Source of the DNA: an uncultured bacterium
Lineage (GTDB): Bacteria; Aquificota; Aquificia; Desulfurobacteriales; Desulfurobacteriaceae
DNA: 49,053 nucleotides
Assembly (NCBI GenBank): GCA_964545225.1
Contig: CAZJFY010000001.1
Location: 1 to 49,053 of the forward strand
Direction of reading: 5' to 3'
The notes below the pieces were generated by a model that saw nothing but the letters and a program-made list of their open reading frames with translations, searched no databases and was not told the origin of the DNA. Positions 424 to 49,053 of this stretch are shown piece after piece. Every line of letters starts with the position of its first letter. Position 1 is the first letter of the stretch. Made by a program: the position numbers and the translations under genes.

Positions 424-425
424 AC

Positions 426-27977: not shown

Positions 27978-28571
27978 ATGGGCTTGATGTATGAAACGCA
28001 AGAATATGTTCAGCGTGGGTATTCTCCTGAAAGAAGAATATACACGATGAATGCTGATGATTATCAGCCTGATATTTATTACGGTCTTTATGCCTCTGGA
28101 GGTAGCGTAAGGCGGCTTCAAGAATGGCTTAATCTTACAGTTTTTAGATTTGGTAATAAGATAAGGGTTGATGGGCTTTACGGCGAACAAACTAGAAGAG
28201 CAGTTAAAAAATTACAGAAGTTTCTAAACTTGACATTTGGAGAACATTTAAAAGTTGATGGGCTTTATGGATGTAGAACGTACTTAGCTGCTCTGAGGCA
28301 CTATAAACAAGCTGGATGGTTGCCTCCGCCCCCTCCCATTCCAAAGTGGGCAAAAGGGTGTGGGGGACTTGCAGTAGGAAAACCTCAACAACTTCCTGTT
28401 AAACCTGTTTATGTTAAGAAGGACTCTAGCGTTAAAACTGGATCTGCTAGCGTTGCTTCTGTATCTGAATCTCAGCCTCAGAGCGGCATCGACAAAAAAA
28501 CTTTATACATCGGTGGTGGAATTTTGGCAGGTTTAATAGCGTTAATGTTAATCGGGAATCCTAAGGAATAG
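27978..28571 (+). CDS. Tail-anchored peptidoglycan-binding (PG_binding_1) protein
   Basis: 'LQEWLNLTVFRFGNKIRVDGLYGEQTRRAVKKLQKFLNL..LKVDGLYGCRTYLAAL' (PG_binding_1 pattern). PPPPP linker. C-terminal TM 'KKTLYIGGGILAGLIALMLIG'. Confidence 0.75.
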   Translation: MGLMYETQEYVQRGYSPERRIYTMNADDYQPDIYYGLYASGGSVRRLQEWLNLTVFRFGNKIRVDGLYGEQTRRAVKKLQKFLNLTFGEHLKVDGLYGCRTYLAALRHYKQAGWLPPPPPIPKWAKGCGGLAVGKPQQLPVKPVYVKKDSSVKTGSASVASVSESQPQSGIDKKTLYIGGGILAGLIALMLIGNPKE

Positions 28572-28581
28572 GGGTTAGGCG

Positions 28582-29193
28582 ATGGCTACGGTTATGCCGT
28601 TGAGTTATGAGCGAACTTATGTAGAATTTCCATCCTTCTACGGCTATGGATATGGTGGTATTAAGAGCTTTTTCACATCCATATGGAAGGGGGCTAAAAA
28701 GGTAGTTACTTCTACTCCTGTTAAGGTAGCTGCTGGGGTTGCTCTTATAGGTGCAGCTCTTCCTGTAGTTTCTAGTGCTATTGGAGGTGCAGCGGGAGCA
28801 GCAGGGGCTGCTGCCACGGCTGGTAAGGTAGGTACTGCGCTGATTGTTGGCAAGACCATAGCTGACACCGCTATGCAGTATCAGTTGGGCAAAAAACAAG
28901 CTGAGCTTATAGAGGCGCAGAAACAAGCAATTCAGTCTGAATCTGTGTTGTATCAGCAAGCACTAGCACAACAATTACAGGCGCAACAATTACAAGCACA
29001 ACAGATGCAGGCCCAACAGGCATTAGCCCAACAACTCACCCAACAGCAAATGCCAGTTCAACAACAAGTACTAGCCCAGCAACCCATCCAACAACAAATG
29101 TATGCTCAGCCGCATAAGAAGGATAACTGGGTTAAATATGCTGCTATTGGCGGTGGTATTTTACTTTTAACGATGTTGCTACTCAACAGATAA
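28582..29193 (+). CDS. Tail-anchored membrane protein with Gly/Ala-rich hydrophobic core and Gln-rich repeat
   Basis: 'GYGYGGIKSFFTSIWKGAKKVV', Gly/Ala-rich hydrophobic stretch, (QQLQA)n tract, C-terminal TM 'VKYAAIGGGILLLTMLLLNR'. Paralog of the junction gene. Confidence 0.75.
   Translation: MATVMPLSYERTYVEFPSFYGYGYGGIKSFFTSIWKGAKKVVTSTPVKVAAGVALIGAALPVVSSAIGGAAGAAGAAATAGKVGTALIVGKTIADTAMQYQLGKKQAELIEAQKQAIQSESVLYQQALAQQLQAQQLQAQQMQAQQALAQQLTQQQMPVQQQVLAQQPIQQQMYAQPHKKDNWVKYAAIGGGILLLTMLLLNR
28954..29109 (+). repeat. Gln-rich low-complexity coding tract (QQLQA-type repeats)
   Basis: 'YQQALAQQLQAQQLQAQQMQAQQALAQQLTQQQMPVQQQVLAQQPIQQQMYAQ'. Confidence 0.8.
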
Positions 29194-29219
29194 ACTTATG
29201 AGTCTTGATGGAGGTGGAT

Positions 29220-29963
29220 ATGAGACTTGTAGTTGAGGAGCAGAAGGATCAAATGGAAGGCTATGGTTCTATTTGGACTAGGGTGAAAGGATATAAGAGA
29301 TGGTTGAACTTCAAGAGATATTTTGCCTCTCCCGTCTATACTAGAGCTCCGTTTTACTCTGCTTTACCTCATGATGTCGTTAATCTTCTTCGGACAACTC
29401 TAGGCGTGAAAGATGGGTACGAAGCTGCTAGATTTACGGCAATAGCTTGTGTAGTAGCTGCGCATCGTATTATCACTCTCCTCGATCAGCTCAGAAATGA
29501 TTTTGGTAAGAGAGGTACTCTGGCAAGAATTAGGCTTTACTTTAGAACAGCTATGTCTAAGTTTTACAGCGGTTCTCACTCTGAGTCTGGATTAGCTTTA
29601 GTTACATCTCTCTATAAGACATTAGAAGCATTTCATGCCTATCTCAAGGCTTCTCTTCCCTACTTTTCTAGTGTGGCACAAAACCAGATCAGAGCTTATT
29701 TACAAGCTACTCCTGCTGACATTTTCCGAGCAGCTGCTAGAGCATATATACGCATTTTCGGAACCAGCGCTTTCAAGCGTTACTCTCAGAGAGCAAATTA
29801 TTACCGTTTTTGCCAATTGGCTGCAAAGGCTATTAAATACCTCGATGCGGTTGCTCATTCTAGGTATTTAACGAATCATCAGAAAAAGATTTTAAGAAGA
29901 CGATATATCTATCCGCTCTTTAAATTACTGCTAGCTAGAAAAGGATGTCTTCATAGACTATAA
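29220..29963 (+). CDS. Hypothetical basic helical protein (247 aa)
   Basis: ATG 29220 follows GGAGGTGG (29211-29218). The track start TTG 29205 is less likely. Arg/Tyr/Ala-rich. Confidence 0.65.
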   Translation: MRLVVEEQKDQMEGYGSIWTRVKGYKRWLNFKRYFASPVYTRAPFYSALPHDVVNLLRTTLGVKDGYEAARFTAIACVVAAHRIITLLDQLRNDFGKRGTLARIRLYFRTAMSKFYSGSHSESGLALVTSLYKTLEAFHAYLKASLPYFSSVAQNQIRAYLQATPADIFRAAARAYIRIFGTSAFKRYSQRANYYRFCQLAAKAIKYLDAVAHSRYLTNHQKKILRRRYIYPLFKLLLARKGCLHRL

Positions 29964-29964
29964 T
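29959..29964 (+). promoter_or_regulatory. Candidate -10 TATAAT overlapping a stop codon
   Basis: In cTATAAT the TAA at 29961-29963 is the stop of the upstream gene. Lies 23 nt upstream of ATG 29987. No TG extension. Confidence 0.25.
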
Positions 29965-29986
29965 ACCACGACACGGGAGGTGAAGC

Positions 29987-30298
29987 ATGGGTGGAAAATT
30001 TAGAGCTTTGGTGGTTAACGGAAAAGTTTGGAGTAAAAAGACTGGTAATTCTGATCCTCAGACACTGGTAAATTTACTGCAGCCCCAATGTTTTACGCTC
30101 GTTTATGTTCACAAAGACGAAAAGAACCCAACTAAATGGGCGGTAGTTGCACTTTTTGACAGTACTTCCGATGATTGTAAGAAAGTTATTGATGATGTAG
30201 CTAAGAAGCTTGGATACACAGAAGGAATACTTGATCCAAGGTTTGTTAGAAAGTATATAAAGGATAATCCTCTTGTTCGTTTGGCTAGGAGTTTCTAA
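29987..30298 (+). CDS. Hypothetical protein (103 aa)
   Basis: GGGAGGTG SD. Confidence 0.65.
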   Translation: MGGKFRALVVNGKVWSKKTGNSDPQTLVNLLQPQCFTLVYVHKDEKNPTKWAVVALFDSTSDDCKKVIDDVAKKLGYTEGILDPRFVRKYIKDNPLVRLARSF

Positions 30299-30720
30299 TG
30301 CTGTTACCCATTCTAATTGGAGGCGTTGCTGCAGCGGGTTTAGTAGGCGGCTTTTTGTTGGGGCGCAAGCATCCATCTTTTACTCTTGAAGACTGTTTAG
30401 AGCAGTACAAAAAGATGGGGTATACTAATGAGCAGGCTTATCGGATTTGTCTGGAAAAGGCGAGAGCCAGTAGTAGTGGAGATGTTTTAGGCAGCATTCT
30501 TCCTCTTGCTGCTTTAGGGGTGGTAGGGATTTTGGCTTTTAGGTTTATGAGAGATTCAGAGCAAGGTTCTTTTAGGACGATATTGCTTACTCCGAAAATA
30601 GTAAGCTCAGGACAGAGTGTGAATAGTAAAGAACAGGAGATTAAAAATGCTAGTGGTGGAGCAGTGCCTAAGCAAGGAATGCATGAAGGATTACCCTTTA
30701 CACCACACCCAATTAGGTAG
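30298..30720 (+). CDS. Hypothetical 2-TM membrane protein (140 aa)
   Basis: TAATG coupling. TMs 'LLPILIGGVAAAGLVGGFLLG' and 'VLGSILPLAALGVVGILAFRF'. Confidence 0.6.
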   Translation: MLLPILIGGVAAAGLVGGFLLGRKHPSFTLEDCLEQYKKMGYTNEQAYRICLEKARASSSGDVLGSILPLAALGVVGILAFRFMRDSEQGSFRTILLTPKIVSSGQSVNSKEQEIKNASGGAVPKQGMHEGLPFTPHPIR

Positions 30721-31207
30721 CTTTTGGCATGATATTTTTCATCCTGTTGAAACGACAGAGTGGCTTTACTACAAGTGGAGGGATTCAAAAAAGATAGAGA
30801 GAGCATTTGTTTCTGTCTTTGGTAGGCGGCCTACCGATAAGGAAGTTGCTAACATTATAGAGGCTTACATCAGAAATAAAAGCGAGTATGGAGATGTCTT
30901 AAAAAGAAGAGGGTTTGTTCTTGAGCTACAAAAAAGTTTGAATAGGGTTTTGCCGAATAAGATAGCTGAGGATGGTATATTTTATTGGCAGACAGTTGCT
31001 GGTATCATGAAATTTCAGGAATTAAGAGGATTAAAACCGACTGGAATTCTAAACAAAGCTACTTGGCGAGAAATTATAACCCTTGATGTTGGTAGCGATG
31101 CTATTAGAAGATTTTATGAAACCAGGTTTAAAAAGATATCTGTTAAAAAGTTACTTATTGCTGGAATGATTGCTATACTTTTAATAGGTTTTTTAATGAG
31201 GAGGTGA
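30647..31207 (+). CDS. Tail-anchored peptidoglycan-binding (PG_binding_1) protein
   Basis: AGGAG lies 7 nt before the ATG. 'LQKSLNRVLPNKIAEDGIFYWQTVAGIMKFQELRGLKPTGILNKATWREI'. C-terminal TM 'KKLLIAGMIAILLIGFLMRR'. Clear paralog of 36108..36638. The start is uncertain because of a 74-nt overlap with the upstream ORF. Confidence 0.7.
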   Translation: MLVVEQCLSKECMKDYPLHHTQLGSFWHDIFHPVETTEWLYYKWRDSKKIERAFVSVFGRRPTDKEVANIIEAYIRNKSEYGDVLKRRGFVLELQKSLNRVLPNKIAEDGIFYWQTVAGIMKFQELRGLKPTGILNKATWREIITLDVGSDAIRRFYETRFKKISVKKLLIAGMIAILLIGFLMRR

Positions 31208-31210
31208 GCC

Positions 31211-31594
31211 ATGAGCTTCTATGCCGAGATACCAGAACAAGAAGGGCTGTATGAAGAAAATTCTTTGAGTGGAGCAAATGAAGCCACGAAGAGCGAAATT
31301 ACTACTGGTGGAGAAGAAGTTGGGGAATCAAGTATTCCTGAGAAGGTAGAGAAAAAAGATATGGGGAACAAATCTGAAAACAGAAATCCCGATATGTTGC
31401 AAAGCAGAAAGAACTTGATGCCGCATAGATATGCAGCTAGAAGAAAGAAACCTGTTATCAAGGTGGTTAAAACAAAGGAAGAACATTTCGATGCCAATTC
31501 TTTTGTTGCAGGATTAATAGGTGGTATAATTATTTACTGGGGATTAACTAAAATATTTGGTAAGAAAAAACAGGGAGAACAAGGAGAGAGGTAA
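31211..31594 (+). CDS. Tail-anchored small protein (127 aa)
   Basis: GAGGAGGTG SD. Acidic/basic N-terminal part. C-terminal TM 'FVAGLIGGIIIYWGLTKIF' + KKKQ. Confidence 0.65.
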   Translation: MSFYAEIPEQEGLYEENSLSGANEATKSEITTGGEEVGESSIPEKVEKKDMGNKSENRNPDMLQSRKNLMPHRYAARRKKPVIKVVKTKEEHFDANSFVAGLIGGIIIYWGLTKIFGKKKQGEQGER

Positions 31595-36107: not shown

Positions 36108-36638
36108 ATGATTGTGGTTGAGGAAATTAAAGAACATAAAGAACAAAGACTTGATCCTGAGTATGGATTTTTTATGGAGGCTATAAGGGCCATAAAACAC
36201 TCGGCAGAAATTTCTAGGGCTTATGAAAAGTTTTTTGGAAGAAAGCCTTCCTTGTCTGAAAAGTACCATGTCGCTTCAGCATACGAAAAGAATAGATCTC
36301 TCTTTGGTATTAGATTGAAAAACAAAAAATTTGTTAAGTGGATACAGGAGGCTATTAATCAAGTTGTACCAAATAAAATTACTGTTGACGGGATTTTTGG
36401 TTACGAAACAGTTGTTGGCATCATGGCCGCCCAACGAGCTCTTGGTCTTAGGCCTACTGGAGTTCTTGACCAAGTAACATTTGCTAAGTTTAGAGACATA
36501 ATGCAGGGCAAGGCTATTGAAACAGGAGTTCCTTCGTTCTTTACACATGAAACTACCTCTTCTTTATGGCTTTGGTTTGTAGCTGGAGGTATTGCCCTTG
36601 CTGTCTTAGTTTACTTTATAATGAGGAGGGGGCAATGA
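36108..36638 (+). CDS. Tail-anchored peptidoglycan-binding (PG_binding_1) protein
   Basis: 'IQEAINQVVPNKITVDGIFGYETVVGIMAAQRALGLRPTGVLDQVTFAKF'. C-terminal TM 'LWLWFVAGGIALAVLVYFIMRR'. Confidence 0.75.
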   Translation: MIVVEEIKEHKEQRLDPEYGFFMEAIRAIKHSAEISRAYEKFFGRKPSLSEKYHVASAYEKNRSLFGIRLKNKKFVKWIQEAINQVVPNKITVDGIFGYETVVGIMAAQRALGLRPTGVLDQVTFAKFRDIMQGKAIETGVPSFFTHETTSSLWLWFVAGGIALAVLVYFIMRRGQ

Positions 36639-37207
36639 TCCTTTCCGAATTTCATACAAACATTAAAAATGACGATGAAATGGTGAAGTTAATAGCAGAT
36701 AAAATAGAAGAGGGGGCTCTTGATCCAAAGGTTAGAAAGCTGGCTTTTGAAATAGTTAGGAAAGCCGGATGCCCTAGCAAAGATTGGTATTGCGAGATAA
36801 GAGCAATATATGATTATGTCAAGAAAAATATCCGGTATTTTTACGATATAAGAGGTATAGATACTTACCATTCAGCTAGAGCTATACTCTTTGAGCTCAA
36901 GGGAGGGGATTGTGATGACTTTTCTATTGTACTTGGTTCCTTACTGGCGGCTATTGGGTATCCAATTAAGCTCAGAATTATTGCCAAGACTAAGCAAGGT
37001 AGGTATATTCATATATATCCTCTTGTTGGTGTTCCTCCGCACGGCAAGGTGGAAAAATGGATACCGCTTGAGCTGACAGATCCTAGAATTCCCTTTGGAA
37101 AAGAGTTTCCTCACGCTAAACACAGGGATTATCTTGTTGTATTCGAGCCTGAAAGGTTTCCTGAGATAATGCGCAAGATTCGGGAAATGGATGCTAAGGA
37201 GGGGTAG
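36635..37207 (+). CDS. Transglutaminase-like cysteine protease (190 aa)
   Basis: ATGA overlap with the upstream gene after GAGGAGGGGG. Cys-His-Asp core: 'KGGDCDDFSIVLGSLLAAIGYP', 'RYIHIYP', 'WIPLELTDP'. Confidence 0.75.
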   Translation: MILSEFHTNIKNDDEMVKLIADKIEEGALDPKVRKLAFEIVRKAGCPSKDWYCEIRAIYDYVKKNIRYFYDIRGIDTYHSARAILFELKGGDCDDFSIVLGSLLAAIGYPIKLRIIAKTKQGRYIHIYPLVGVPPHGKVEKWIPLELTDPRIPFGKEFPHAKHRDYLVVFEPERFPEIMRKIREMDAKEG

Positions 37208-37685: not shown

Positions 37686-37943
37686 ATGGCAGCGGTCAAG
37701 CCGGTAGCGGAAAAAACGATAGGGAGAGTCAGGTTTGTAGGAAGTAGAGGAATAGTGATTGTCGGCGAAAGAAGTAAAGGTGAAATTAAAAAAAATCAAG
37801 CTGCAAAAACTAAAGCTATAAAAGCCCAAAAAGCTTCTTTTACTCCTAAGCGAAAGGGCAAGAAAAAGCCGGGATTACTAACTGCCGTTGCTAGCGTTTT
37901 ATTGCTTACTGTTTTGTCGTACTTCGTTGCGCAAAAAGGGTAA
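37686..37943 (+). CDS. Lys-rich tail-anchored small protein (85 aa)
   Basis: GAGGAGGGCA SD. 'KKNQAAKTKAIKAQKASFTPKRKGKKKP' followed by TM 'GLLTAVASVLLLTVLSYFVA'. Confidence 0.65.
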   Translation: MAAVKPVAEKTIGRVRFVGSRGIVIVGERSKGEIKKNQAAKTKAIKAQKASFTPKRKGKKKPGLLTAVASVLLLTVLSYFVAQKG

Positions 37944-41103: not shown

Positions 41104-41131
41104 TTGTTTGAAATTGAAGGAGGAGGGCAGC

Positions 41132-44100
41132 ATGCTTGCAGGAGTTGTCATGAAAGGGGGCAAGGTTTCTTCTTTTCCTGACCTATTACCATCCGGCTTT
41201 AAAACAATAATTGACAGTGTTTTTGGGACAAGGGCTTTAAGGAAGGTTTATTACTTTATCAGTCCTTTTGCTTCTACCCTAGTTGCTTCCGATGGTTCTA
41301 AAACTTATGTAGAAGTTCTTGCCCCCAATCCTAAAGATGCCCTATTTCGCTTAAATGAAGAGATGCGAGCCAATCCTTATGTTGTATGCTATGAAGTGCC
41401 TAGCGATAAGGCATCGGAATTTATTGATCTTATTAAGAAGCAAAAATCCTTGGCTATCAAGCAAGATATTGTTCAATCCATTATAGGCTTGAAGAAGTGC
41501 AAGGCAAGTGATAATCCATTTTCTATTTTTGCTTATGCCCCTAAGTTTTCAAGCCTTTACTTCTGGCAAAATATAGTAAAACACTATTTATGGGATAGAG
41601 GTTTCTTTAGTGCTAGTATTCCTGAGAATGGACACGGTAGAATAACTTTAACAGAAGATGGTATCTTTTCAGGGCTTTATAACCTTGATGAAGTTATTGT
41701 AGGAGGAGTAAGGTTTAAATTGCTTTACATGACTTTCGATTTGAAAGAGGAGGATCTGGCTAAAGTTAAGGAGAGAATTTATGATAACAAGAGAAAGGTT
41801 GATGCACTTAACAGGTCTGTTTTGAGAATAGCGAAACGCGTAGATTGTGAATATGCTATAAAAGATACGGTAATTTTTCCAGCAAGCGATAAATTGATTA
41901 GTAGAATAAGAAAAAAAATTAAATTCTCTCTGCCCATTGAGAAGTATCCTAGTGATAATGAACAGCAACTTCTTGTGACAAGACTTGCTTTAGACATAAC
42001 TGACGCAGATTCTCCTTATGAGGTTGTCATAGACAAGCTGTTAGCTGTGTCAAAGGCGGTAGTGTCTCCACAGGTGCTCTTTTATCTTATCAAGATCTTC
42101 TACATCCTTGATGGTATTATTTCTTTTGTTTCTGTTACTTCGCAGATACTGGAAGAATCTAAGGCAAACGCTTACCTCTCTTCATTTGACAATCTGTCCT
42201 CGTTTCTAAGAGAAGAGGAAAGGAAACTTGAACAAGCGAGAAGTAAACTTATTTCCATTATTTCCTCCGAGGTTGGTGTAGAACCAAAAGAGCTGAAAGG
42301 CGTGCTTAATCCATTTGCATTCAGGATTTTAACCACACAGGCAATAAACGCGATAAGGTCCCTTATTTTTGGCGTCATTGATAGTACTGATAGGCGAAAA
42401 GCTATTGGTGTTTCTAGTAAGATACAGAATACCTATACTTTCATGATTAACGCCTTCTTGCCACTACTTTCTTCTCTGATTGGTGAGAAGAAAAGTTTCA
42501 CTGAGTTTGATCCTTCTGTTTTTGAGAGTGGAGTCAAGGAACTTGTCAGCTTAGTAAAATCTGGAAGCTATAATGATAAGATAAAACACATAACAGATGC
42601 CCTGGTTGATAAATATGAAAATCTCAAAATAGTCAAGAGGGCTAAAGTTGATGAGATTATTGCCAATGCTATTTTCAGGCTAACGGGAATTGCTTCTCCA
42701 TTTGTTTCCTTTGTTGATATACCTGCGCTCTTTGAAGCGTTTAGGATAGGCGAGAGATTTAAAATCACAGACCTAAAGCGGGCAATCGGTGAGGATCTTA
42801 AAAATCTTTCATTCAACTTGGTCGTTTCTCCCCGCGCTAAGAAATACTTCAAAGACGAAAGTACGCAAGAAACTTTTGCACTGTCTTCTTATCTTGTTAA
42901 CGCCGCCTACAAAGGTGTTAGAAGAAAATATGACCTAATAGCTCGTAATGTAGTTGTTCAGGAAAGCGAAATAATCCAGGAATACAAGGAAGCTGCTACC
43001 GAAGCTGGGATAGGGGAACAAGGAAAGGATCTAGCTGAGCTTCTTGCTTTAACAGAGGAATATTCACGCGAATTTGAAGAGCTCACCGAGGATAAACTGC
43101 TTTCTGTTTATAGCATATACAAAAAAGAAGAAGTAAGTCCTGAGAGAAGATATAGATTTGCCAGATTTGGAGGCTCTCTTAAACATCTTGTTGAGTATTA
43201 CTCTCCTTCTGGAGTTGGGTTGGGTGGAGGAGTAGCAGCCAAAGCTAATCCAATACTAGATGTTTTTACCTCTCTTGAAATGCTTAAGAAGGCCATTAAG
43301 GCGGTTACTGACAGGATGTTTGGAAAAGAGGTTGTGGATGAAAGTGAAATTCCTTCTACCTTCTGGGATGAAGTTTTAAAAGAAATATCATTGATGGAGG
43401 GACAGGGTTTAATCACAAGTGATATAAGAGAATTCTTTGAGCTTTTTGTTTATAACATTATACTTTCAACCCTTGATTATGTTGCTTCCTTTTTCTATCG
43501 CGCACAAGCTGTTGAGCCCGAAAGAAAGAGAGCTGAAGTGCTGTATAGATTTGTCGAGCTTCTTCTAGTCTTCGTTGACGAGATTAAAAGATGGATAGCG
43601 GCTTCATTTATTACCGTTTCTAGTGTTAAACCTTTTACGCCGCAGTGGCTCGGCTTTTTAAAACAAAAAGCTTCTAAGCATTTACAACTGAAAAAAGACT
43701 TTGTCAAAATTTACAAATTGATAAATTCTTCAGATTTAACTTCTTTGCGAGGAAGAGTTATAAAGGTAGTGTCAGAGATACTTGACAAAGAAGTTGGTAA
43801 TGTGTTGCTGCGAACCGAACTTCAACATTTGAAGGCCATCACGATAGAGTTAATGGTTATACTTTCTTATCTCAAAGAAAAAGGAAAGACAGAATATACT
43901 AACAGCGAGATCGCGCTTACCATTGCTAAATTCCTAGCTCTTATCGCTGTACTGTCTTTAGTTAAAGCCAATCATACAAAGTCTAATTTTAAACTTGCCA
44001 AAAAAACTGACAAAGGACTGGATTACTATCAGGACGAATATAGGGTGCTTTCTGGCGAAAAGATAGAACAGCAGCTTTATGGTATCTGTAATGACATTGT

Positions 44101-47100
44101 TAAAGGAGCTAGGGTTGATGCTGTTGCTAGATATTTTGATAATGTTCTAAATCAAATCAAACAACTTGTTTCGCTTTGTGATGACGATTCCGTTTGTCTA
44201 GTTTATTCCATTCCTGAGGTAGAAGAGCCAGCATTAATTCCTTTGAAGGAATTTTTTGCTCAACAGGTTCTCGGAGCTAGGATATATGACCCCGCAGTGG
44301 TGGCCTTAAAAGAGATAATTGCCGGTAAGGTTTTAGATTTACTCCCGCTTTACAAAGCTTACTTTGGCCTTTGCGATGTTATTGAAAAAGAGCAGCTTCC
44401 TGTTTCTGAAGTAGTAGCTAAATATCCCGGTATAAGAAAACCCATCGCTGATTTTCTCCGTGAGGAAGTAGTCATTGGCGTTGAAAGAACGCTGTATCAA
44501 CTTGCTGTGTACTTCTTGGTAATAAACGCTTTGGAATCAGCATCGCGCCCGACAGCTTTGATGATACTGAAGCGTATGCTTCTTGAATATGGGGCGACTC
44601 AACCTGATGTTCTATTGAACCTTATCAATGTTAGCGGAATGACTCTAAATACTTATTTTGCGTATAAGATGCCTATTGCCGATAGTGTGGTTGTAAGAAC
44701 GAGATTTGCTAGATTGGAAGCTCTAAAAAGTATGCAACTTCCTATGCTTAAAGGATACTTAATAGGACAATGGAACTTGGTTGAAGATAGCTTACCCTAC
44801 TACGGTGTTCCAATAGCTGGAATCCCAAGCTGGGCTTATGCATTGCCCTTGATGTTGTTCCAGTGCGTTGATTTAATTCCAGAAGAGGCAGTGAAGAAAG
44901 ATGAGCTTATTTCAAAGGTTTTGGAAATAACTAAAGGGGTGCGATCCTCGGATGTTATAGGTATTGTTCGTAAATCCATTCAAGAAGCTGGAGCTGGAGC
45001 ATCTGTTGTAGCTGGCTCTACTTGTTGTAATGTCTTCCGAGCTTTAGAAGAAAACATTGCAAAGGTGAAAAATGTCAGTGAGGTGGTTTCGTTCTTTAAG
45101 ATACCTAGCACGGAGGTTGAAGGCAAGTACTCGTTTTCAATTTTCGATGACGTACCTAGTGTTTTATCTTCCGTCTCACCTACGCTTCTTGATAGAGTTG
45201 GACCCGATATTAACCTTAACAACTTTTATCACAGTGCTAGAAGCTTTGTAGTAATGCAGGCGTTACTTTCCATTTTGATTAATTTGCCTCCTGCGGACGC
45301 TGAAAGGAAGCTGAATACACTGATTAGGAACATTATGAGCGCTAAAAAATTAGGATCGTCAGCTATAGAGGCAGCTAATGCGATTTACAACAGATATTGC
45401 GATCTTTTACTTAACCAATCTGACAACAAACAAAGGCTTGAGCTAGATGCAGAAAGGCTTATTCGTCTCTCGAAGCTTGTCACAACAATTGCTAATAAGA
45501 CATCCATATACAATGTTGTGCTTTTCATTACACTTATTGATTTCCTTGCTTACATAGCCGAGGCTCCTCGATCCTTCCAAGAGTTTAATGGAAGAATTGG
45601 AGTATTGGGTCCGGTTTCTACAGCTGTTATTGAAACCAAGAAGTTTCTTGAAGCTCTCAAATTTATAGGTCTTGACAAAATTGTGACTGATCAGGCTTAC
45701 GGAATAGAAAGAATTGTCAACTTCCTGCAGGAAATAATGTCTTACTATCGTAATACCATACTGGAACACAGCAAAAGCTATTCATCTCTTGTTGCTTCCT
45801 TTGCTACATTCAGAGAGCAGGTCATCAAACCATTTGTTTTAACAACAATTGGTAAGGAAGGCCTTGAATTGATAGCTCTCTTAAAAACGCTATCTCATAT
45901 TTCTGCTTTTGATTTCGTTCTAACCAAGCAGTCACTTGCAGATGTAAGCGAAGCTAGAGATTTACTTGACACAAAAGACAAGATTATTTCTCAACATGTA
46001 TTCTATGCCACCGCGCTGGCCGAAAGGATAATTTCTGTCCACACCATTAAGCTGCTTGCTATGCAATATGAGGATACATTCACTATGCTTGCTAGACGCG
46101 GAAGAAGTGTGTTTTCTGCTGATGGGCGCAATAGCTACTTTGGTAAAATAAGAGACAAAATATTTACCTCTCTTCCTAAAGACAAAGAAATACTAAGAGG
46201 AGAGGATATAACATTTGCCTTAGCTTACCTACTCGCAGCTTTGAAATCTCATGTATTCCAGCCAATTAATGATGCCATTGAAAACATTGGAGGTTCTACA
46301 GTTCAGTCTGTTATAGACAGCTTTAAGCACGCAATCAGAAATTCTATTGAAAAAGAGATCAAGCAAGAGAAAATAAGAAGTTCAGAACTACCACAAGTTT
46401 TGCCGCTTACTTCTAAGATAGTTAAAGACGCCGTTGCGGGGTTAATGTCTTCAACCCCTGCTTCGAGAATCTATGTTCTGTCTTTACTTATTGAACTCGA
46501 AAATAAAGCGCAAGATATACTCAAACAAGTAGCTGCTAAGCTAACGCTTCTTAAAAGTAAGTACCCACAATCCATTCCTGCCCAACTTGTTCGTGAGATT
46601 GTAATAGAAACCATTGTTCAATATGTAGAAGGGCTTGTCAAGGTTTACACGGATGGAATTAAAAACGAAATGCTCTTATCTCTTGTTAGTTATTACAATG
46701 CTATTATAGACACTATGGTTAGAGAAGACGAGATAACAAAAGGACTTGTACAGCTTATTCTTGCCTATACCTTCCTATCTCATGAACCTGCTGCTCTCGA
46801 AGAAGGGATAAAATACTTAAGCAACAATCAAGTAATTTCTACCTTCAAACAGGAGTACGAAAATCTTAGAACAGAAAAAACTAAATACGCAAGCTTCACA
46901 GAAGCATTCTGCTCTACTATTGCTCGTTTCTGTGAATATGAATCTACACTTATTAAAGTGCCTCACCTAGTATTACTCACTTTGCTGATTTCCAACATTG
47001 TTCCTCGTGCATACAGAACGCAAGTTGATTTGAAAGCTGCTAGCTATGGTAACATTTGGTCTGGTGTAATCGGATCAGTGGTATCTATGGCAGTAGCTCG

Positions 47101-47275
47101 AAGAACAATTGAAAGATTTTCCTTTGTTCTCTCTAAGAAAAAAGTGCGGGAAGAAGTATTCGCGGAAGCAGAAGAACAAAGAGCTATTAACTTTATTGCT
47201 CAGCAGCTTTCCGAGTATGTTGTCCCGCAAGAACAGGTCAAGAAGATGAAACAGTTTTCTCCTTTACTGCTTTAG
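41132..47275 (+). CDS. Giant 2,047-aa predominantly helical protein of unknown function
   Basis: Uninterrupted 6.1-kb ORF. ATG 41132 follows AAGGAGGAGGGCA (the track TTG 41108 is less likely). Leu/Lys/Glu/Ile/Ala-rich with no catalytic motif recognised by eye. Confidence 0.85.
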   Translation: MLAGVVMKGGKVSSFPDLLPSGFKTIIDSVFGTRALRKVYYFISPFASTLVASDGSKTYVEVLAPNPKDALFRLNEEMRANPYVVCYEVPSDKASEFIDLIKKQKSLAIKQDIVQSIIGLKKCKASDNPFSIFAYAPKFSSLYFWQNIVKHYLWDRGFFSASIPENGHGRITLTEDGIFSGLYNLDEVIVGGVRFKLLYMTFDLKEEDLAKVKERIYDNKRKVDALNRSVLRIAKRVDCEYAIKDTVIFPASDKLISRIRKKIKFSLPIEKYPSDNEQQLLVTRLALDITDADSPYEVVIDKLLAVSKAVVSPQVLFYLIKIFYILDGIISFVSVTSQILEESKANAYLSSFDNLSSFLREEERKLEQARSKLISIISSEVGVEPKELKGVLNPFAFRILTTQAINAIRSLIFGVIDSTDRRKAIGVSSKIQNTYTFMINAFLPLLSSLIGEKKSFTEFDPSVFESGVKELVSLVKSGSYNDKIKHITDALVDKYENLKIVKRAKVDEIIANAIFRLTGIASPFVSFVDIPALFEAFRIGERFKITDLKRAIGEDLKNLSFNLVVSPRAKKYFKDESTQETFALSSYLVNAAYKGVRRKYDLIARNVVVQESEIIQEYKEAATEAGIGEQGKDLAELLALTEEYSREFEELTEDKLLSVYSIYKKEEVSPERRYRFARFGGSLKHLVEYYSPSGVGLGGGVAAKANPILDVFTSLEMLKKAIKAVTDRMFGKEVVDESEIPSTFWDEVLKEISLMEGQGLITSDIREFFELFVYNIILSTLDYVASFFYRAQAVEPERKRAEVLYRFVELLLVFVDEIKRWIAASFITVSSVKPFTPQWLGFLKQKASKHLQLKKDFVKIYKLINSSDLTSLRGRVIKVVSEILDKEVGNVLLRTELQHLKAITIELMVILSYLKEKGKTEYTNSEIALTIAKFLALIAVLSLVKANHTKSNFKLAKKTDKGLDYYQDEYRVLSGEKIEQQLYGICNDIVKGARVDAVARYFDNVLNQIKQLVSLCDDDSVCLVYSIPEVEEPALIPLKEFFAQQVLGARIYDPAVVALKEIIAGKVLDLLPLYKAYFGLCDVIEKEQLPVSEVVAKYPGIRKPIADFLREEVVIGVERTLYQLAVYFLVINALESASRPTALMILKRMLLEYGATQPDVLLNLINVSGMTLNTYFAYKMPIADSVVVRTRFARLEALKSMQLPMLKGYLIGQWNLVEDSLPYYGVPIAGIPSWAYALPLMLFQCVDLIPEEAVKKDELISKVLEITKGVRSSDVIGIVRKSIQEAGAGASVVAGSTCCNVFRALEENIAKVKNVSEVVSFFKIPSTEVEGKYSFSIFDDVPSVLSSVSPTLLDRVGPDINLNNFYHSARSFVVMQALLSILINLPPADAERKLNTLIRNIMSAKKLGSSAIEAANAIYNRYCDLLLNQSDNKQRLELDAERLIRLSKLVTTIANKTSIYNVVLFITLIDFLAYIAEAPRSFQEFNGRIGVLGPVSTAVIETKKFLEALKFIGLDKIVTDQAYGIERIVNFLQEIMSYYRNTILEHSKSYSSLVASFATFREQVIKPFVLTTIGKEGLELIALLKTLSHISAFDFVLTKQSLADVSEARDLLDTKDKIISQHVFYATALAERIISVHTIKLLAMQYEDTFTMLARRGRSVFSADGRNSYFGKIRDKIFTSLPKDKEILRGEDITFALAYLLAALKSHVFQPINDAIENIGGSTVQSVIDSFKHAIRNSIEKEIKQEKIRSSELPQVLPLTSKIVKDAVAGLMSSTPASRIYVLSLLIELENKAQDILKQVAAKLTLLKSKYPQSIPAQLVREIVIETIVQYVEGLVKVYTDGIKNEMLLSLVSYYNAIIDTMVREDEITKGLVQLILAYTFLSHEPAALEEGIKYLSNNQVISTFKQEYENLRTEKTKYASFTEAFCSTIARFCEYESTLIKVPHLVLLTLLISNIVPRAYRTQVDLKAASYGNIWSGVIGSVVSMAVARRTIERFSFVLSKKKVREEVFAEAEEQRAINFIAQQLSEYVVPQEQVKKMKQFSPLLL

Positions 47276-47364: not shown

Positions 47365-47382
47365 GGAGGTGCAAAATGGCAA
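47365..47382 (+). promoter_or_regulatory. Translation-initiation region GGAGGTGCAAAATGGCAA (copy 1)
   Basis: 18 nt identical to 47962-47979. Confidence 0.8.
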
Positions 47383-47921
47383 CCGCTGTAATCTATGATG
47401 GAGTGGCAGGATTTGATAATGTGGGAGAAACCGCAAAGAATGTCATTAAAGGCGGTGCAATCGGAGCCGCAACAGGACTAGCTACCATTTTCGTAACAAA
47501 CAAAATTCCAGTAATTAACAGGATGAACCCTATTATCAAATCCGTAATTGAGCTCGGTATTGTTATTGGAATCACTGCCCTTGCTAAGGACAAACTAGGA
47601 GAAGAAACAGCAACGGCAATGGGAGTTGGTGGTGCTTCAGTAGTTCTTGGTGCAGCTATAAGCAAGTTACTGGCCAAGAAGTTCCACAGCGCACCACAGG
47701 TGGTACCCGGCAAACATGGCTTTGAAGGATATGGAGATGCTGTAGCTCCTATTATTGAAGAAGTGGATGGATACGGAGACGCTGTAGCTCCTGTTGTTGA
47801 AGAAGTGGACGGATACGGAAATGAAGGTGAACTTGAAGAAGAACCGGTAGAAGTAGATGTTGTTGATGGTTATGGCGAAGTTGAAGATGAAGACGAAGGA
47901 GTCGTTGTAACTGTTGAGTGA
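47376..47921 (+). CDS. Multi-TM membrane protein with acidic repeat tail (181 aa), likely abundant
   Basis: GGGAGGTG SD. Gly/Ala/Ile-rich TM segments ('GGAIGAATGLATIFV', 'VIELGIVIGITALA', 'GVGGASVVLGAAISKLL'). C-terminal tail of 14-aa repeats 'GYGDAVAPxxEEVD'. Confidence 0.75.
   Translation: MATAVIYDGVAGFDNVGETAKNVIKGGAIGAATGLATIFVTNKIPVINRMNPIIKSVIELGIVIGITALAKDKLGEETATAMGVGGASVVLGAAISKLLAKKFHSAPQVVPGKHGFEGYGDAVAPIIEEVDGYGDAVAPVVEEVDGYGNEGELEEEPVEVDVVDGYGEVEDEDEGVVVTVE
47727..47819 (+). repeat. 42-bp tandem repeat (2 full copies plus the start of a third) encoding GYGDAVAP(I/V)(I/V)EEVD
   Basis: 47727-47768 and 47769-47810 differ only at a few third positions and at the Ile/Val codons. Confidence 0.85.
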
Positions 47922-47961: not shown

Positions 47962-47979
47962 GGAGGTGCAAAATGGCAA
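47962..47979 (+). promoter_or_regulatory. Translation-initiation region GGAGGTGCAAAATGGCAA (copy 2)
   Basis: 18 nt identical to 47365-47382. Confidence 0.8.
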
Positions 47980-48738: not shown

Positions 48739-49053
48739 ATGCTTGTTATCGAAGGGCCCCCTCGCGAAGAAGGTTACGGATTCTTCAAAGGAGTGATTAA
48801 AAAGGTTTTTAAGGCAGTTAACAAAGTAAGTCCAGTCCTCACAATAGGTAGTTCATTCCTAACTGGGGGACTTACTACTGGTTTTCTAGCTAAACAAGCT
48901 GGAGCGGCTGCAGCAAAAACTGCCATCAAATCCAGTATCTCCCATAAGCCAACAATTATCACTAAACCTAGTATACCTCATAAGCCAATAATTACTGCTC
49001 CACCTCATAAACCTTCCACACCTCATAAGCTAATAGTTAGTCCACCTCATAAA
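48739..49053 (+). CDS. N-terminal part of a tail-anchored membrane protein (3' truncated by the window end, continues at nt 1 if circular)
   Basis: AAGGGAGG SD. ATG 48739 lies 31 nt after the TTTGTTATAAT promoter. Open for exactly 105 codons to the window end. 'GYGFFKGVIKKVFKAV' is paralogous to 28582..29193. 'PHKP' repeats. Confidence 0.7.
   Translation, partial: MLVIEGPPREEGYGFFKGVIKKVFKAVNKVSPVLTIGSSFLTGGLTTGFLAKQAGAAAAKTAIKSSISHKPTIITKPSIPHKPIITAPPHKPSTPHKLIVSPPHK
48940..49053 (+). repeat. Degenerate PHKP-type octapeptide repeats (coding)
   Basis: 'SHKPTIITKPSIPHKPIITAPPHKPSTPHKLIVSPPHK'. The DNA unit cctcataa(g/a)cc recurs. Confidence 0.7.

What the first reader, a model, noticed from the sequence alone, without database searches (positions are those of the whole stretch)
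27978..31594. Cluster of tail-anchored (C-terminal TM) proteins sharing a K-x-(Y/L)-x-x-GGG-(I/V)-L anchor
Seen: at least seven proteins end in a single TM helix followed by a few basic residues. They are the junction gene 48739../..423 and the ORFs at 27978, 28582, 30647, 31211, 36108 and 37686.

Three share almost the same anchor: 'KKYLLLGGGVLLLVLLL', 'KKTLYIGGGILAGLIAL' and 'VKYAAIGGGILLLTMLL'.

Adding the N-terminally anchored SLT, the holin-like protein, and the ORFs at 30298, 37962 and 47376 gives about 12 membrane proteins.

Inference: by the positive-inside rule, basic residues after the helix predict an N-out topology. Such a density of small membrane proteins recalls internal-membrane or enveloped viruses, and is far more than a normal lysis cassette.
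Basis: partly seen in the sequence, partly recalled or inferred. Interest (0 to 1): 0.7.

Follow-up and report, generated by a model that had tools for sequence, protein, structure and literature searches.

The report
Tail-anchored membrane protein family of vent virus
An uncultivated ~84-kb virus-like genome from deep-sea vents carries about eleven proteins anchored by a membrane helix at their very end, many sharing a second signature at their start; its only phage relative is a lipid-containing tailless phage, so the particle probably contains a membrane.

Summary
The cluster is real and larger than reported. Six complete ORFs (27978, 28582, 30647, 31211, 36108, 37686) end in a single hydrophobic helix. 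The "junction gene" is not a gene. The window is a 49-kb piece of an ~84.2-84.6-kb genome, and its two ends cut two different tail-anchored genes. The whole genome has about 11.

New findings:
- The anchor (K-K-Y-L-L-x-G-G...) recurs in relatives from other vents.
- Most of these proteins also share an N-terminal motif (M-L/I-V-V-E ... G-Y-G-D-Y/F-G), conserved at amino-acid level. Many carry Pro/Gln/Lys-rich stalks.
- Three carry a PG_binding_1 domain. One of these genes is always followed by a transglutaminase-like (papain-fold) gene.
- The only homologue of that enzyme among 50,697 phage records is gp34, an annotated structural protein of the internal-membrane phage SSIP-1. gp34 itself ends "YLLLGGGILL...".

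No terminase, portal, HK97 capsid or tail genes were detected. No packaging ATPase or jelly-roll capsid protein was detected either.

The positive-inside argument for N-out topology fails. The membrane-virion idea is the best explanation (confidence ~0.5), with the tail anchor placing N-domains on the outer face of a vesicle made in the cytoplasm. Everything is computational.

The parts
1..423 (+). 3' fragment (140 aa) of a tail-anchored gene of the 28582/48739 type, ending DKKYLLLGGGVLLLVLLLTMMRRE. Its 5' end lies outside every assembly. About 15 codons are missing, judged by alignment to homologue P0001.
420..1076 (+). Lytic transglycosylase (SLT) with an N-terminal hydrophobic anchor. Gene callers start it at 426.
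   Evidence: Pfam SLT E 5e-21. KD segment at residues 6-24. PHROG lytic tail, internal virion and endolysin families.
1079..1648 (+). Holin-like protein with three hydrophobic segments.
   Evidence: KD scan. phrog_9990 at 1e-9 and phrog_1544 at 3e-8, both small phage membrane proteins of unknown function.
27978..28571 (+). Tail-anchored protein: PG_binding_1 domain (aa 40-86), Pro-rich linker, anchor DKKTLYIGGGILAGLIALMLIGNPKE.
28582..29193 (+). Tail-anchored 'family A' protein. In order: YGYGYG N-motif, amphipathic segment, Gly/Ala-rich hydrophobic segment (aa 49-67), Gln-rich coil, anchor WVKYAAIGGGILLLTMLLLNR.
   Evidence: (homologue L019_1470)
29220..29963 (+). Basic helical protein (pI 10.2) carrying the N-terminal motif MRLVVEEQKDQMEGYGSIW but no transmembrane helix.
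30298..30720 (+). Conserved protein with two hydrophobic segments (aa 2-20 and 63-81).
   Evidence: Homologues in L018 and L019.
30647..31207 (+). Tail-anchored PG_binding_1 protein, paralogue of 36108 (38% identity). The start at 30647 gives MLVVEQ. Gene callers use 30683.
31211..31594 (+). Tail-anchored protein with an acidic N-terminus (MSFYAEIPEQEGLYEE) and a basic tail.
   Evidence: Genes of the same architecture, in the same position in L018 and next to the TA-PG gene in L016: L018_4697 and L016_830.
36108..36638 (+). Tail-anchored PG_binding_1 protein (MIVVEE...EYGFF N-motif). Its stop overlaps the start of the next gene.
   Evidence: Pfam 2e-10. Family members P0004, P0008, P0010, P0013 and P0020. 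AlphaFold model, pLDDT 78. Foldseek matches to PG-binding modules.
36635..37207 (+). Transglutaminase-like (papain-fold) enzyme with conserved Cys (GGDCDDF) and His (HIYP). It always directly follows the tail-anchored PG-binding gene.
   Evidence: Pfam Transglut_core 2e-8. 74% and 60% identity to relatives. Synteny. SSIP-1 gp34 homologue.
37686..37943 (+). Small (85 aa) very basic tail-anchored protein.
41108..47275 (+). Giant (2055 aa) alpha-helical protein with hydrophobic segments. Analogous in position and size to SSIP-1 structural protein gp43, but with no sequence similarity.
47376..47921 (+). Protein with two hydrophobic segments, 71% conserved in a relative.
47973..48548 (+). Most conserved protein of the block (76% identity), beta-rich. 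A capsid role is a guess.
   Evidence: (model too poor to use)
48739..49053 (+). 5' part of a 307-321 aa tail-anchored family A gene: MLVIEG..EEGYGFF, Gly/Ala-rich segment, PPHKP tandem repeats. The anchor lies beyond the window end.

Best explanation
These are membrane proteins of a lipid-containing virion of the SSIP-1 or PRD1 style: an internal membrane, or an envelope made inside the cell.

Proposed mechanism:
1. The proteins are made in the cytoplasm without signal peptides.
2. They are inserted after translation by their C-terminal helix, so the N-terminal domain and its Pro/Gln/Lys-rich stalk stay on the cytoplasmic face of the host membrane.
3. When a virus-specific membrane patch is pinched off into the cytoplasm, that face becomes the outer face of the vesicle.
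4. There the N-domains contact the capsid shell or vertices.
5. During entry they are exposed to the cell wall. The PG_binding_1 proteins, the coupled papain-fold (transglutaminase-like) enzyme and the membrane-anchored SLT would then act as a wall-binding and wall-opening set.
6. The Gly/Ala-rich 'family A' proteins would be membrane-remodelling candidates.
7. The shared N-terminal motif would be a sorting or docking signal, or a substrate site for the papain-fold enzyme.

Shown:
- the architecture, and its conservation in relatives;
- the PG-binding fold;
- the adjacency of the anchored PG-binding gene and the enzyme gene;
- the homology of that enzyme to an SSIP-1 protein annotated as structural;
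- the absence of detectable tailed-phage hallmark genes.

Inferred:
- the topology;
- the presence of these proteins in virions;
- the presence of lipid;
- every functional step.
For: (a) Architecture. There is no N-terminal hydrophobic segment and a single helix at the extreme C-terminus. This is the defining layout of bacterial C-tail-anchored proteins, which were shown for TssL to be N-in (PMC3426401).

(b) PG_binding_1 is present in three of them and confirmed by model and Foldseek. This domain is normally found in cell-wall enzymes and wall-binding proteins that work outside the cytoplasm. Without a signal peptide it most simply reaches peptidoglycan when carried by a particle.

(c) Link to SSIP-1.
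- The gene pair of anchored PG-binding protein followed by Transglut_core is conserved in three lineages.
- The enzyme's only phage homologue is SSIP-1 gp34 (tblastn 3e-9; phmmer 7e-13; profile 4e-15).
- gp34 is annotated as a structural protein, carries Transglut_core, and ends NLPYLLLGGGILLGGGYLIAQSSK.

(d) SSIP-1 has 9.3% tail-anchored ORFs against 11% in the window and 1.4% in lambda.
- gp41 (annotated as structural) is one of them.
- gp53, also annotated as structural, has the same layout as 28582 on reading: Gly/Ala-rich segment, coil and a C-terminal hydrophobic stretch. The KD scan flagged only its N-proximal segment.

(e) Precedents.
- PRD1 P7/P14 is an SLT with a C-proximal transmembrane helix.
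- Sphaerolipovirus VP13 and VP10, and STIV A55, are C-terminally anchored membrane proteins assigned or proposed to contact the capsid: VP13 and A55 under the pentons, VP10 as a capsid-membrane linker candidate (PMC6414509).

(f) Pfam and PHROG scans found no terminase, portal, HK97 capsid protein, sheath, tube or baseplate in the ~84-kb genome. Not every small ORF was scanned.

(g) SSIP-1's own capsid proteins are also invisible to Pfam. Failure to detect a capsid protein here is therefore expected for this kind of virus.
Against: - No jelly-roll capsid protein was identified. The one attempt, an AlphaFold model of 47973, had pLDDT 42.
- There is no packaging ATPase. The only canonical Walker A motif in ~84 kb is in UvrD, and the two SNF2 helicases carry GxGKT motifs. 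SSIP-1's ATPase gp40 is readily detected.
- The SSIP-1 link rests on one significant protein family. A profile of the anchors does not score SSIP-1 anchors significantly. The giant proteins and putative capsid proteins show no similarity.
- 16273 has a borderline tail-collar-fibre N-domain.
- Stalks of 60-100 residues seem too long for the narrow gap between an internal membrane and its capsid, unless they run through the vertices or the membrane is external.
- At 84 kb the genome is about twice the size of the largest membrane-containing phage in the tables consulted (SSIP-1, 44 kb).
Confidence: 0.5

Rival explanations
1. Ejection ('ejectosome') proteins of a very divergent tailed phage. They would be packed in the head through the common N-terminal motif, acting as a capsid-targeting sequence like that of phage T4 internal proteins. 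At infection they would be ejected into the periplasm. There the PG-binding, SLT and papain-fold modules open the wall, the Pro-rich stalks span the periplasm, and the C-terminal helix inserts into the inner membrane from outside (N-out).
For: - The proteins lack signal peptides yet carry cell-wall modules.
- The shared N-terminal motif also occurs on proteins without a transmembrane helix.
- SLT matches PHROG families of internal virion proteins and lytic tail proteins.
- 16273 has a borderline tail-collar-fibre domain.
- There are many fibre-like paralogues.
- A giant helical protein with hydrophobic segments could be a tape measure or an internal protein.
Against: - No terminase, portal, HK97 capsid or tail tube was detected by Pfam or PHROGs in the scanned ORFs.
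- About 11 such proteins per genome is far more than the three or four ejection proteins of T7 or P22 (own knowledge).
- The one phage homologue is from a tailless membrane phage.
Confidence: 0.2
2. Proteins that stay in the membrane of the infected cell and act there. Possible roles are lysis control or spanin-like envelope disruption (next to the SLT and holin-like genes), superinfection exclusion, or a membrane-tethered platform for replication or assembly. They would not be virion components.
For: - The tail-anchored fragment at 1..423 directly precedes an SLT with an N-terminal anchor and a holin-like gene, which looks like a lysis cassette.
- Pro-rich and KP-repeat spacers resemble periplasm-spanning proteins such as TonB (own knowledge; sequences).
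- Two tail-anchored genes lie among metabolic genes (spermidine synthase, AdoMetDC) outside the structural block.
- In relative L018 a ribonucleotide reductase gene sits among the tail-anchored genes.
Against: - No lipobox and no N-terminal type II anchor, so they do not fit i-, o- or u-spanins.
- A cytoplasmic N-domain could not reach peptidoglycan, and export of 150-380 residue N-domains without a signal peptide is unlikely.
- Eleven paralogous or analogous proteins exceed any known lysis or exclusion set (own knowledge).
- SSIP-1 gp34 and gp41, which score as C-terminally anchored, are annotated as structural. So is gp53, whose C-terminal stretch is seen only on reading.
Confidence: 0.2
3. 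The element is not a virus. It would be a plasmid or integrative element whose membrane proteins, SLT and PG-binding proteins form a transfer or vesicle-producing apparatus.
For: - It is not found in IMG/VR with any query tried.
- It encodes a tyrosine integrase, primase, helicases and several methyltransferases.
- A membrane-anchored SLT resembles VirB1 (own knowledge).
Against: - No VirB4- or VirD4-type ATPase and no relaxase (plus the precomputed Pfam hits).
- The best plasmid hit of the enzyme is weaker (5e-5) than the SSIP-1 hit.
- PHROG-specific domains are present: phrog_20698 in five paralogues, a tail-collar-fibre domain, holin-like families and an M15 endolysin.
- Nothing was found in GTDB genomes.
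Confidence: 0.07

Closest known systems
[quoted passage not shown]
   Same: - It is the only phage record with a homologue of the window's transglutaminase-like protein. That homologue, gp34, is annotated as structural.
- gp34 ends in a YLLLGGGILL helix like window 1..423.
- The density of C-terminally anchored proteins is similar.
- gp53 resembles 28582 in layout.
- Both have a giant >2000 aa protein followed by ~200 aa proteins.
- Both encode a sigma-like protein.
- The capsid proteins of both are invisible to Pfam.
   Different: - Only one protein family is demonstrably homologous.
- SSIP-1 has a detectable ATPase, gp40. This genome has none.
- SSIP-1's anchored proteins lack the M-L-V-V-E/GYGDYG N-motif.
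- In SSIP-1 the enzyme itself carries the anchor. Here the neighbouring PG-binding protein does.
- This genome is twice as large, and comes from hydrothermal vents rather than a hypersaline site.
PRD1 P7/P14 and the small membrane proteins of Tectiviridae
   Same: - A virion-membrane lytic transglycosylase with a C-proximal transmembrane helix.
- About ten virus-encoded membrane proteins.
- The membrane serves genome delivery (PMC3782422 abstract).
   Different: - PRD1 membrane proteins are mostly 30-120 aa, with the helix near the N-terminus or in the middle. None meets the tail-anchor criterion used here.
- They have no stalks and no shared terminal motifs.
- No sequence similarity was noted.
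Sphaerolipovirus VP13 and VP10, and STIV A55
   Same: Membrane proteins with a C-terminal transmembrane helix whose N-parts are assigned or proposed to contact the capsid: VP13 and A55 under the pentons, VP10 as a candidate capsid-membrane linker (PMC6414509).
   Different: - They are small (9-18 kDa), few per genome, and from archaeal or Thermus viruses.
- They have no PG-binding domains or stalks.
- No similarity test was run.
[quoted passage not shown]
   Same: A single transmembrane helix at the extreme C-terminus, no signal peptide and a very short tail (PMC3426401 and PMC6389858).
   Different: - Those are rare cellular proteins (~0.2% of E. coli).
- Here they make up ~10% of a viral genome, and they carry domains of cell-wall enzymes and wall-binding proteins.
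C-terminal sorting signals (LPXTG, PEP-CTERM, GlyGly-CTERM)
   Same: - The same order of parts: signature motif, hydrophobic helix, and often basic residues.
- Often preceded by a Pro-rich spacer.
   Different: - No N-terminal Sec signal.
- No sortase, exosortase or rhombosortase in the genome.
- No NCBIfam sorting-signal model matched at E<=1.
Unimolecular spanins (phage T1 gp11 type)
   Same: A C-terminal inner-membrane helix, a periplasm-length spacer, and a position beside lysis genes in the case of window 1..423.
   Different: - No N-terminal lipoprotein signal.
- Far too many copies.
- Diverse N-domains.

Membership tests
Bacterial C-tail-anchored membrane proteins | A single transmembrane helix within ~30 residues of the C-terminus | tested here: met
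   KD scan. Core helices are 16-24 residues and tails 2-14 residues. AlphaFold models a helix at residues 153-175 of 36108.
Bacterial C-tail-anchored membrane proteins | No N-terminal signal or anchor sequence | tested here: met
   No hydrophobic segment in the N-terminal 40 residues of any of the proteins. No dedicated signal-peptide predictor was available.
Bacterial C-tail-anchored membrane proteins | N-terminal domain cytoplasmic, with post-translational insertion (YidC, SRP or DnaK) | not testable with these tools
   The charge balance is ambiguous. Reporter fusions or cysteine-accessibility mapping are needed.
Internal-membrane icosahedral phages (PRD1-adenovirus lineage, SSIP-1-like) | Vertical jelly-roll major capsid protein(s) | tested here: inconclusive
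   No Pfam or PHROG hit. The AlphaFold model of 47973 had pLDDT 42. hhalign against SSIP-1 gp45/46 was negative. SSIP-1's own capsid proteins also have no Pfam hit.
Internal-membrane icosahedral phages (PRD1-adenovirus lineage, SSIP-1-like) | FtsK/HerA-type packaging ATPase | tested here: not met
   The only canonical Walker A motif is in UvrD, and the two SNF2 helicases carry GxGKT motifs. tblastn with SSIP-1 gp40 found nothing.
Internal-membrane icosahedral phages (PRD1-adenovirus lineage, SSIP-1-like) | Set of virus-encoded membrane proteins in the structural gene block | tested here: met
Internal-membrane icosahedral phages (PRD1-adenovirus lineage, SSIP-1-like) | Lipid in the virion | not testable with these tools
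   Particles are needed.
Internal-membrane icosahedral phages (PRD1-adenovirus lineage, SSIP-1-like) | Sequence homology to a structural protein of a member | tested here: met
   Transglut_core protein against SSIP-1 gp34. This holds for one protein only.
Caudoviricetes (tailed phages) | Large terminase, portal and HK97-fold capsid protein | tested here: not met
   No Pfam or PHROG match for any ORF of >=400 aa or for the other ORFs scanned (plus the precomputed Pfam hits). Extreme divergence cannot be excluded.
Caudoviricetes (tailed phages) | Tail proteins | tested here: inconclusive
   Only 16273 has a tail-collar-fibre N-domain. Pfam gives 21.2 bits, below the cut-off of 23. phrog_4618 gives 5.8e-5.
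C-terminal sorting signals (LPXTG, PEP-CTERM, GlyGly-CTERM) | Match to a curated sorting-signal model, an N-terminal Sec signal, and a cognate sorting enzyme | tested here: not met
   NCBIfam scan of 10 anchored proteins at E<=1 found no such model. No signal peptide. No sortase-type gene in the genome (Pfam lists).
Spanins | N-terminal type II anchor (i-spanin) or lipobox (o- and u-spanin) | tested here: not met
   N-termini listed: no lipobox and no N-terminal transmembrane helix.
PG_binding_1 domain proteins | Pfam PF01471 match above the gathering score, and a three-helix fold | tested here: met
   32-46 bits against a cut-off of 23. Model pLDDT >90 over residues 30-130. Foldseek rmsd 1.5-1.9 A to the PG-binding modules of L,D-transpeptidase, SleC and SleB.

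The most novel reading that the evidence does not exclude
The N-terminal M-L/I-V-V-E...GYGDYG motif together with the K-K-Y-L-L-x-G-G C-terminal anchor is a virus-specific two-signal sorting system. It would load a diversifying set of cargo domains (PG-binding, Cys-rich globular, Gly/Ala-rich membrane-active), each held on a Pro-rich stalk, onto a virus-made membrane. It would do so in the largest membrane-containing bacterial virus lineage yet seen (~84 kb). That lineage assembles without any recognisable packaging ATPase, so its morphogenesis would differ from both tailed phages and PRD1-like viruses.
Probability: 0.2. Interest if true: 0.85.

Novelty: new variant of a known kind. Interest (0 to 1): 0.62.

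Why it matters
Membrane-containing phages are few in culture, and their membrane proteins are poorly understood. [quoted passage not shown]

If this reading is right, three things follow:
- A vent-dwelling lineage of ~80-kb genomes, present in at least seven metagenome assemblies from vent or vent-type samples and missing from IMG/VR, INPHARED, PLSDB and GTDB representatives, would extend that group to thermal environments and double its size range.
- Tail-anchoring would be recognised as a Sec-independent way for a virus to decorate the outer face of an intracellular membrane.
- A simple sequence signature (many C-tail-anchored ORFs with a common N-motif) could be used to find lipid-containing phages that current virus-detection pipelines miss.

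The conserved PG-binding and papain-fold gene pair is also a candidate new type of virion-associated wall-degrading module.

Tried and rejected
**Searches that gave little or nothing**
- All three homologous-protein searches were largely wasted.
  - Window 1-420 returned one 45% homologue, P0001.
  - The 307-aa protein returned only itself.
This was a poor idea.
- Megablast and tblastn against phages with the window half, the 621-aa paralogue, the giant protein, 16273 and 36108 gave no match.
- IMG/VR scans with 36108, the 47973 alignment, the enzyme alignment and an exact DNA word found nothing.
- Both GTDB genome scans were negative, so no host was found.
- No tRNAs were found.

**Structure and profile comparisons**
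- The single-sequence AlphaFold model of 47973 had pLDDT 42 and is unusable.
- PDB sequence searches of the giant protein and of 19772 found nothing.
- hhalign of 47973 against SSIP-1 gp45/46, and of the giant protein against gp43, found no similarity.
- A profile of 18 anchors does not score SSIP-1 anchors significantly. The YLLLGGG resemblance is reported as a resemblance only.

**Ideas considered and rejected**
- Circular-genome junction: rejected.
- Type IV pilin-like N-terminus: rejected, because no hydrophobic helix follows the Glu.
- K+ channel filter (GYGD): rejected, because of its position and the lack of a pore architecture.
- Double-glycine bacteriocin leader with a pore-forming segment: there is only a weak microcin E492 hit (E 0.016). 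This is left as speculation.

Full report
**Observation**

A Kyte-Doolittle scan of all ~51 window proteins shows a single hydrophobic helix ending 2-11 residues before the stop in 27978, 28582, 30647, 31211, 36108 and 37686, and in the frame that ends at 423. The three quoted anchors are present as written.

- Seven of the 15 proteins with any hydrophobic segment have it at the extreme C-terminus, against 1.4 expected from random placement (P~1.5e-4).
- The same ORF pipeline gives 11% such proteins in the window and 1.4% in lambda, where the single hit is an unannotated ORF.
- E. coli K-12 is put at 11 such proteins, about 0.2% (PMC3426401).

**The 'junction gene' is not real**

- Exact-protein look-ups show that the window is ENA scaffold FORT21-1_..._scaffold_83.
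- The same genome occurs on contigs of 84,187 bp (JGI 3300041922) and 64,885 bp (a hydrothermal-vent metagenome), and cluster records list one contig of 84,614 bp.
- These contigs read through the window's 3' end. The gene starting at 48739 is 307-321 aa and ends ...LGTLALLGGAALIGLLALSGGEE. It is followed by a 258-aa gene ending WMKYAAIGGLALAAGLLLSQSGD.
- The window stops inside a 42-bp tandem repeat of that gene that varies in copy number between samples.
- There is no sequence overlap between the window's ends, or between the 84-kb genome's right end and window position 1.
- Four assemblies all begin within 28 nt of position 1. Alignment with the one homologue found (P0001) suggests only ~15 codons of the gene ending at 423 are missing. 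Why assemblies stop there is unexplained.

The true count in the genome is about 11, including two more in the region outside the window (L028 11725-12168 and 13607-14026).

**Anatomy**

The proteins are modular.

- **N-terminus.** Most carry M-(L/I/V)-V-(V/I)-E, followed within 5-25 residues by an aromatic-glycine motif whose fullest form is (E/D)-G-Y-G-D-(Y/F)-G-F.
  - Examples: MLVIEGPPREEGYGFF (48739), MIVVEE..DPEYGFF (36108), MIVVEERGYGDFGF and MLVVETKDGYGDYAG (relative L018), MLVVEYEGQESPPPYGDFGFF (relative L009), ILVEENNQRYMYSGYG (L028).
  - Codons differ while amino acids are kept.
  - Aromatic-Gly dipeptides in the first 30 residues average 1.45 in anchored proteins and 0.48 in the others (P 1.4e-5). 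The sequences are not independent.
  - The motif also occurs on a few proteins without an anchor: 29220.. (basic, helical), 39039.., and L018 11125...
- **Middle.** The cargo varies:
  - PG_binding_1 (27978, 30647, 36108; Pfam 32-46 bits);
  - an amphipathic stretch plus a Gly/Ala-rich hydrophobic segment and a Gln-rich coil (28582, 48739, window 1..423);
  - Cys-rich globular domains (L018_113 and L018_2364).
- **Stalk.** Before the anchor there is often a low-complexity stalk: PPHKP repeats (48739), about 90 residues of (PQ)n (L018_113), KP and PVR repeats (L009_17810), or P/S-rich sequence (window 1..423).
- **Anchor.** It reads (D/N)-K-K-(Y/L)-L-L-x-G-G-...-L-L-L, followed by 2-14 residues.

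**Conservation**

An exhaustive HMMER search with 36108 found five further 50%-identity clusters of full-length relatives (P0004, P0008, P0010, P0013, P0020), besides the cluster holding its window paralogue 30647 (P0012). They are 166-186 aa and 31-46% identical to 36108. All have the helical PG-binding core and the C-terminal helix, and most have the N-terminal aromatic-Gly motif. The remaining hits are generic PG-binding repeats.

Their contigs come from the same or similar vent samples. Gene order is kept: anchored PG-binding gene, transglutaminase-like gene, about seven small genes, integrase, giant protein.

An AlphaFold model built on this seven-sequence alignment (pLDDT 78) shows:
- residues 1-16 disordered;
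- an all-alpha domain at 17-139, whose last three helices superpose on the PG-binding modules of L,D-transpeptidases, SleC, SleB, CtpB, EpsAB and phiKZ gp144 (rmsd 1.5-1.9 A);
- a flexible linker;
- a terminal helix at 153-175.

**Topology**

The 15 residues before the helix carry as many or more K/R than the tail in 9 of 11 proteins, and some tails are acidic.
- There is no N-terminal signal.
- For TssL most programs predicted N-out, but experiments showed N-in with YidC-dependent insertion (PMC3426401).
- No known C-terminal sorting signal model matches.
- The layout fits neither spanins nor sortase substrates.

**What kind of element this is**

I walked the rest of the genome through exact-protein look-ups. 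It encodes:
- UvrD helicase, a DnaG-type primase and two SNF2 helicases;
- four or five DNA methyltransferases;
- a STIV_B116-like protein, a sigma-70-like protein and an NrdD fragment;
- SNase and VRR-NUC nucleases;
- spermidine synthase with AdoMet decarboxylase;
- an M15 endolysin.

In the window there are also a tyrosine integrase, an SLT with an N-terminal anchor, and a holin-like protein with three hydrophobic segments.

Pfam and PHROGs recognise no terminase, portal, HK97 capsid, sheath, tube or baseplate. There is only a sub-threshold tail-collar-fibre N-domain in 16273, and a paralogue family (2081, 3828, 6747, 8375, 25020) sharing a C-terminal PHROG domain of unknown function. The only canonical Walker A motif is in UvrD, and the two SNF2 helicases carry GxGKT motifs.

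The lineage is absent from INPHARED phages, IMG/VR and the GTDB representative genomes with every query tried. PLSDB, searched only with the enzyme, holds just weak hits (5e-5) to unrelated transglutaminase-domain proteins.

**The SSIP-1 link**

The transglutaminase-like protein (36635..37207) has conserved catalytic Cys and His and is 60-74% identical among relatives. Among 50,697 phage records it has one homologue: gp34 of Salisaeta icosahedral phage 1 (tblastn 3e-9; phmmer 7e-13; profile 4e-15). The best plasmid hit is 5e-5.

SSIP-1 is a tailless icosahedral phage with an internal membrane, T=49 and a 44-kb circular genome (PMC6356626 and PMC6260650).

Parallels found in the SSIP-1 record:
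- gp34 is annotated as a structural protein, carries Transglut_core, and ends NLPYLLLGGGILLGGGYLIAQSSK.
- gp41 (structural) and gp52 (Gly-rich spacer plus anchor) also score as C-terminally anchored. So does gp50, but it has an N-terminal lipobox and so looks like a u-spanin rather than a signal-less tail-anchored protein.
- gp53 (structural) shows a Gly/Ala-rich segment, a coil and a C-terminal hydrophobic stretch on reading, the layout of 28582. The KD scan flagged only its N-proximal segment.
- The automated count is 9.3% of ORFs, one of them unannotated.
- A 2319-aa structural protein is followed by ~210-aa proteins. This is analogous in position to the window's 2055-aa protein and to 47376 and 47973.

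Limits of the link:
- None of those other pairs shows sequence similarity.
- A profile of the anchors does not pick out SSIP-1 anchors.
- SSIP-1 has an obvious ATPase (gp40, AAA_25), while its putative capsid proteins have no Pfam match. Missing a capsid protein here is therefore uninformative, but the missing ATPase is a real difference.

**Mechanism proposed (confidence ~0.5)**

1. The proteins are inserted from the cytoplasm by their C-terminal helix, which needs no Sec export.
2. Their N-domains and stalks sit on the cytoplasmic face of the host membrane.
3. That face becomes the outer face of a virus vesicle pinched off into the cytoplasm. This is the way PRD1-type phages are thought to make their internal membrane (own knowledge).
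4. From there the N-domains could tie the membrane to the capsid. This has been assigned to the C-terminally anchored VP13, suggested for VP10 of sphaerolipoviruses, and assigned to A55 of STIV (PMC6414509).
5. At entry, the PG-binding modules, the papain-fold enzyme and the SLT would be presented to the wall. PRD1 P7, an SLT with a C-proximal transmembrane helix, is a precedent.
6. The PG-binding protein and the enzyme look like a split version of a modular wall hydrolase. In SSIP-1 the enzyme itself carries the anchor.
7. The N-motif would be a sorting or docking signal, or a processing site for the enzyme.

All of these steps are inference.

**Rivals**

| Rival | Confidence | Main support | Main objection |
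|---|---|---|---|
| Ejection proteins of a very divergent tailed phage | 0.2 | Explains cell-wall modules without signal peptides, the common N-motif and the stalks | No head or tail hallmark genes; too many such proteins |
| Proteins resident in the infected cell's membrane (lysis, exclusion, assembly platform) | 0.2 | The lysis-like trio at 1-1648; two anchored genes among metabolic genes | Cannot bring PG_binding_1 to the wall |
| A non-viral mobile element | 0.07 | Not found in IMG/VR; integrase and replication genes | No transfer ATPases or relaxase; phage-type domains present |

**Verdict**

Its details needed correction: the junction, the basic tails and the topology.

I file the finding as a new variant of a known kind. 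It is a membrane-phage-like lineage with an expanded, doubly tagged tail-anchored protein family, and not as a member of any defined family, because the packaging ATPase test failed and the capsid test is open.

Noticed in passing
window 48739-49053; L004 11003-11213: A 42-bp tandem repeat encoding PPHKP-type units sits inside a tail-anchored gene, and its copy number differs between samples (5.1 copies in L004, one fewer in L005). The window contig ends inside it.
   Followed up: yes
window 1; L012-L015: Four independent assemblies start within 28 nt of window position 1, in the middle of a gene that lacks only ~15 codons. The 84-kb genome's other end shares no sequence with it. Whether the genome is circular or linear is unresolved.
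   Followed up: partly
window 2081-10153 and 25020-26597: Five Cys-rich proteins of 525-621 aa share a ~100-aa C-terminal domain (phrog_20698 and phrog_22549, function unknown). They are likely a diversifying receptor-binding or fibre family.
   Followed up: partly
window 16273-17073: The N-terminal ~110 aa resemble the tail-collar-fibre N-domain (Pfam PF12571 at 21.2 bits, below the cut-off of 23; phrog_4618 at 5.8e-5). This is the only tail-like signal in the genome.
   Followed up: partly
window 41108-47275; L018 15186-: A giant alpha-helical protein (2055 aa; 2642 aa in a relative) with several hydrophobic segments has no Pfam, PHROG or PDB match. SSIP-1 has a 2319-aa structural protein in a comparable position but without sequence similarity.
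   Followed up: partly
window 47973-48548: This is the most conserved protein of the region (76% identity to the L009 relative). It is beta-rich and 191 aa long, with no family match. It could be a capsid protein, but the single-sequence AlphaFold model failed (pLDDT 42).
   Followed up: partly
window 34871-36040; L018 8675-9825: The convergent gene pair 34871(+)/35408(-) is inverted as a unit in relative L018.
   Followed up: no
window 18606-19484 (-) and L004/L023/L028: The genome carries four or five DNA methyltransferases (N6_N4_Mtase x3, plus an N6_Mtase/Eco57I/TaqI_C type). One lies on the opposite strand inside the structural block.
   Followed up: no
L028 12616-14405: Spermidine synthase and AdoMet decarboxylase genes (polyamine synthesis) lie in the viral genome with a tail-anchored gene between them. 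Nearby are a sigma-70-like gene (which also gives a short tblastn match to SSIP-1 gp2, 35% over 49 aa, 1e-5), an NrdD fragment and an M15 endolysin.
   Followed up: no
L018 113-1276 and 2364-3296: In the relative, two paralogous tail-anchored proteins carry Cys-rich globular domains, one with a ~90-residue (PQ)n stalk. A ribonucleotide reductase small-subunit gene sits between them.
   Followed up: no
L033 (SSIP-1) 36467-36997: SSIP-1 gp50 has an N-terminal lipoprotein signal (MRICALLTLLFFSGC) and a C-terminal transmembrane helix. This is the layout of a unimolecular spanin. The record annotates it only as hypothetical.
   Followed up: no
L005 10767-11690 (window 48739-): The Gly/Ala/Ser-rich hydrophobic segment (aa 33-84) gives a weak match to E492-group microcins (NCBIfam E 0.016). 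This hints at a membrane-active, pore-forming type of segment.
   Followed up: no
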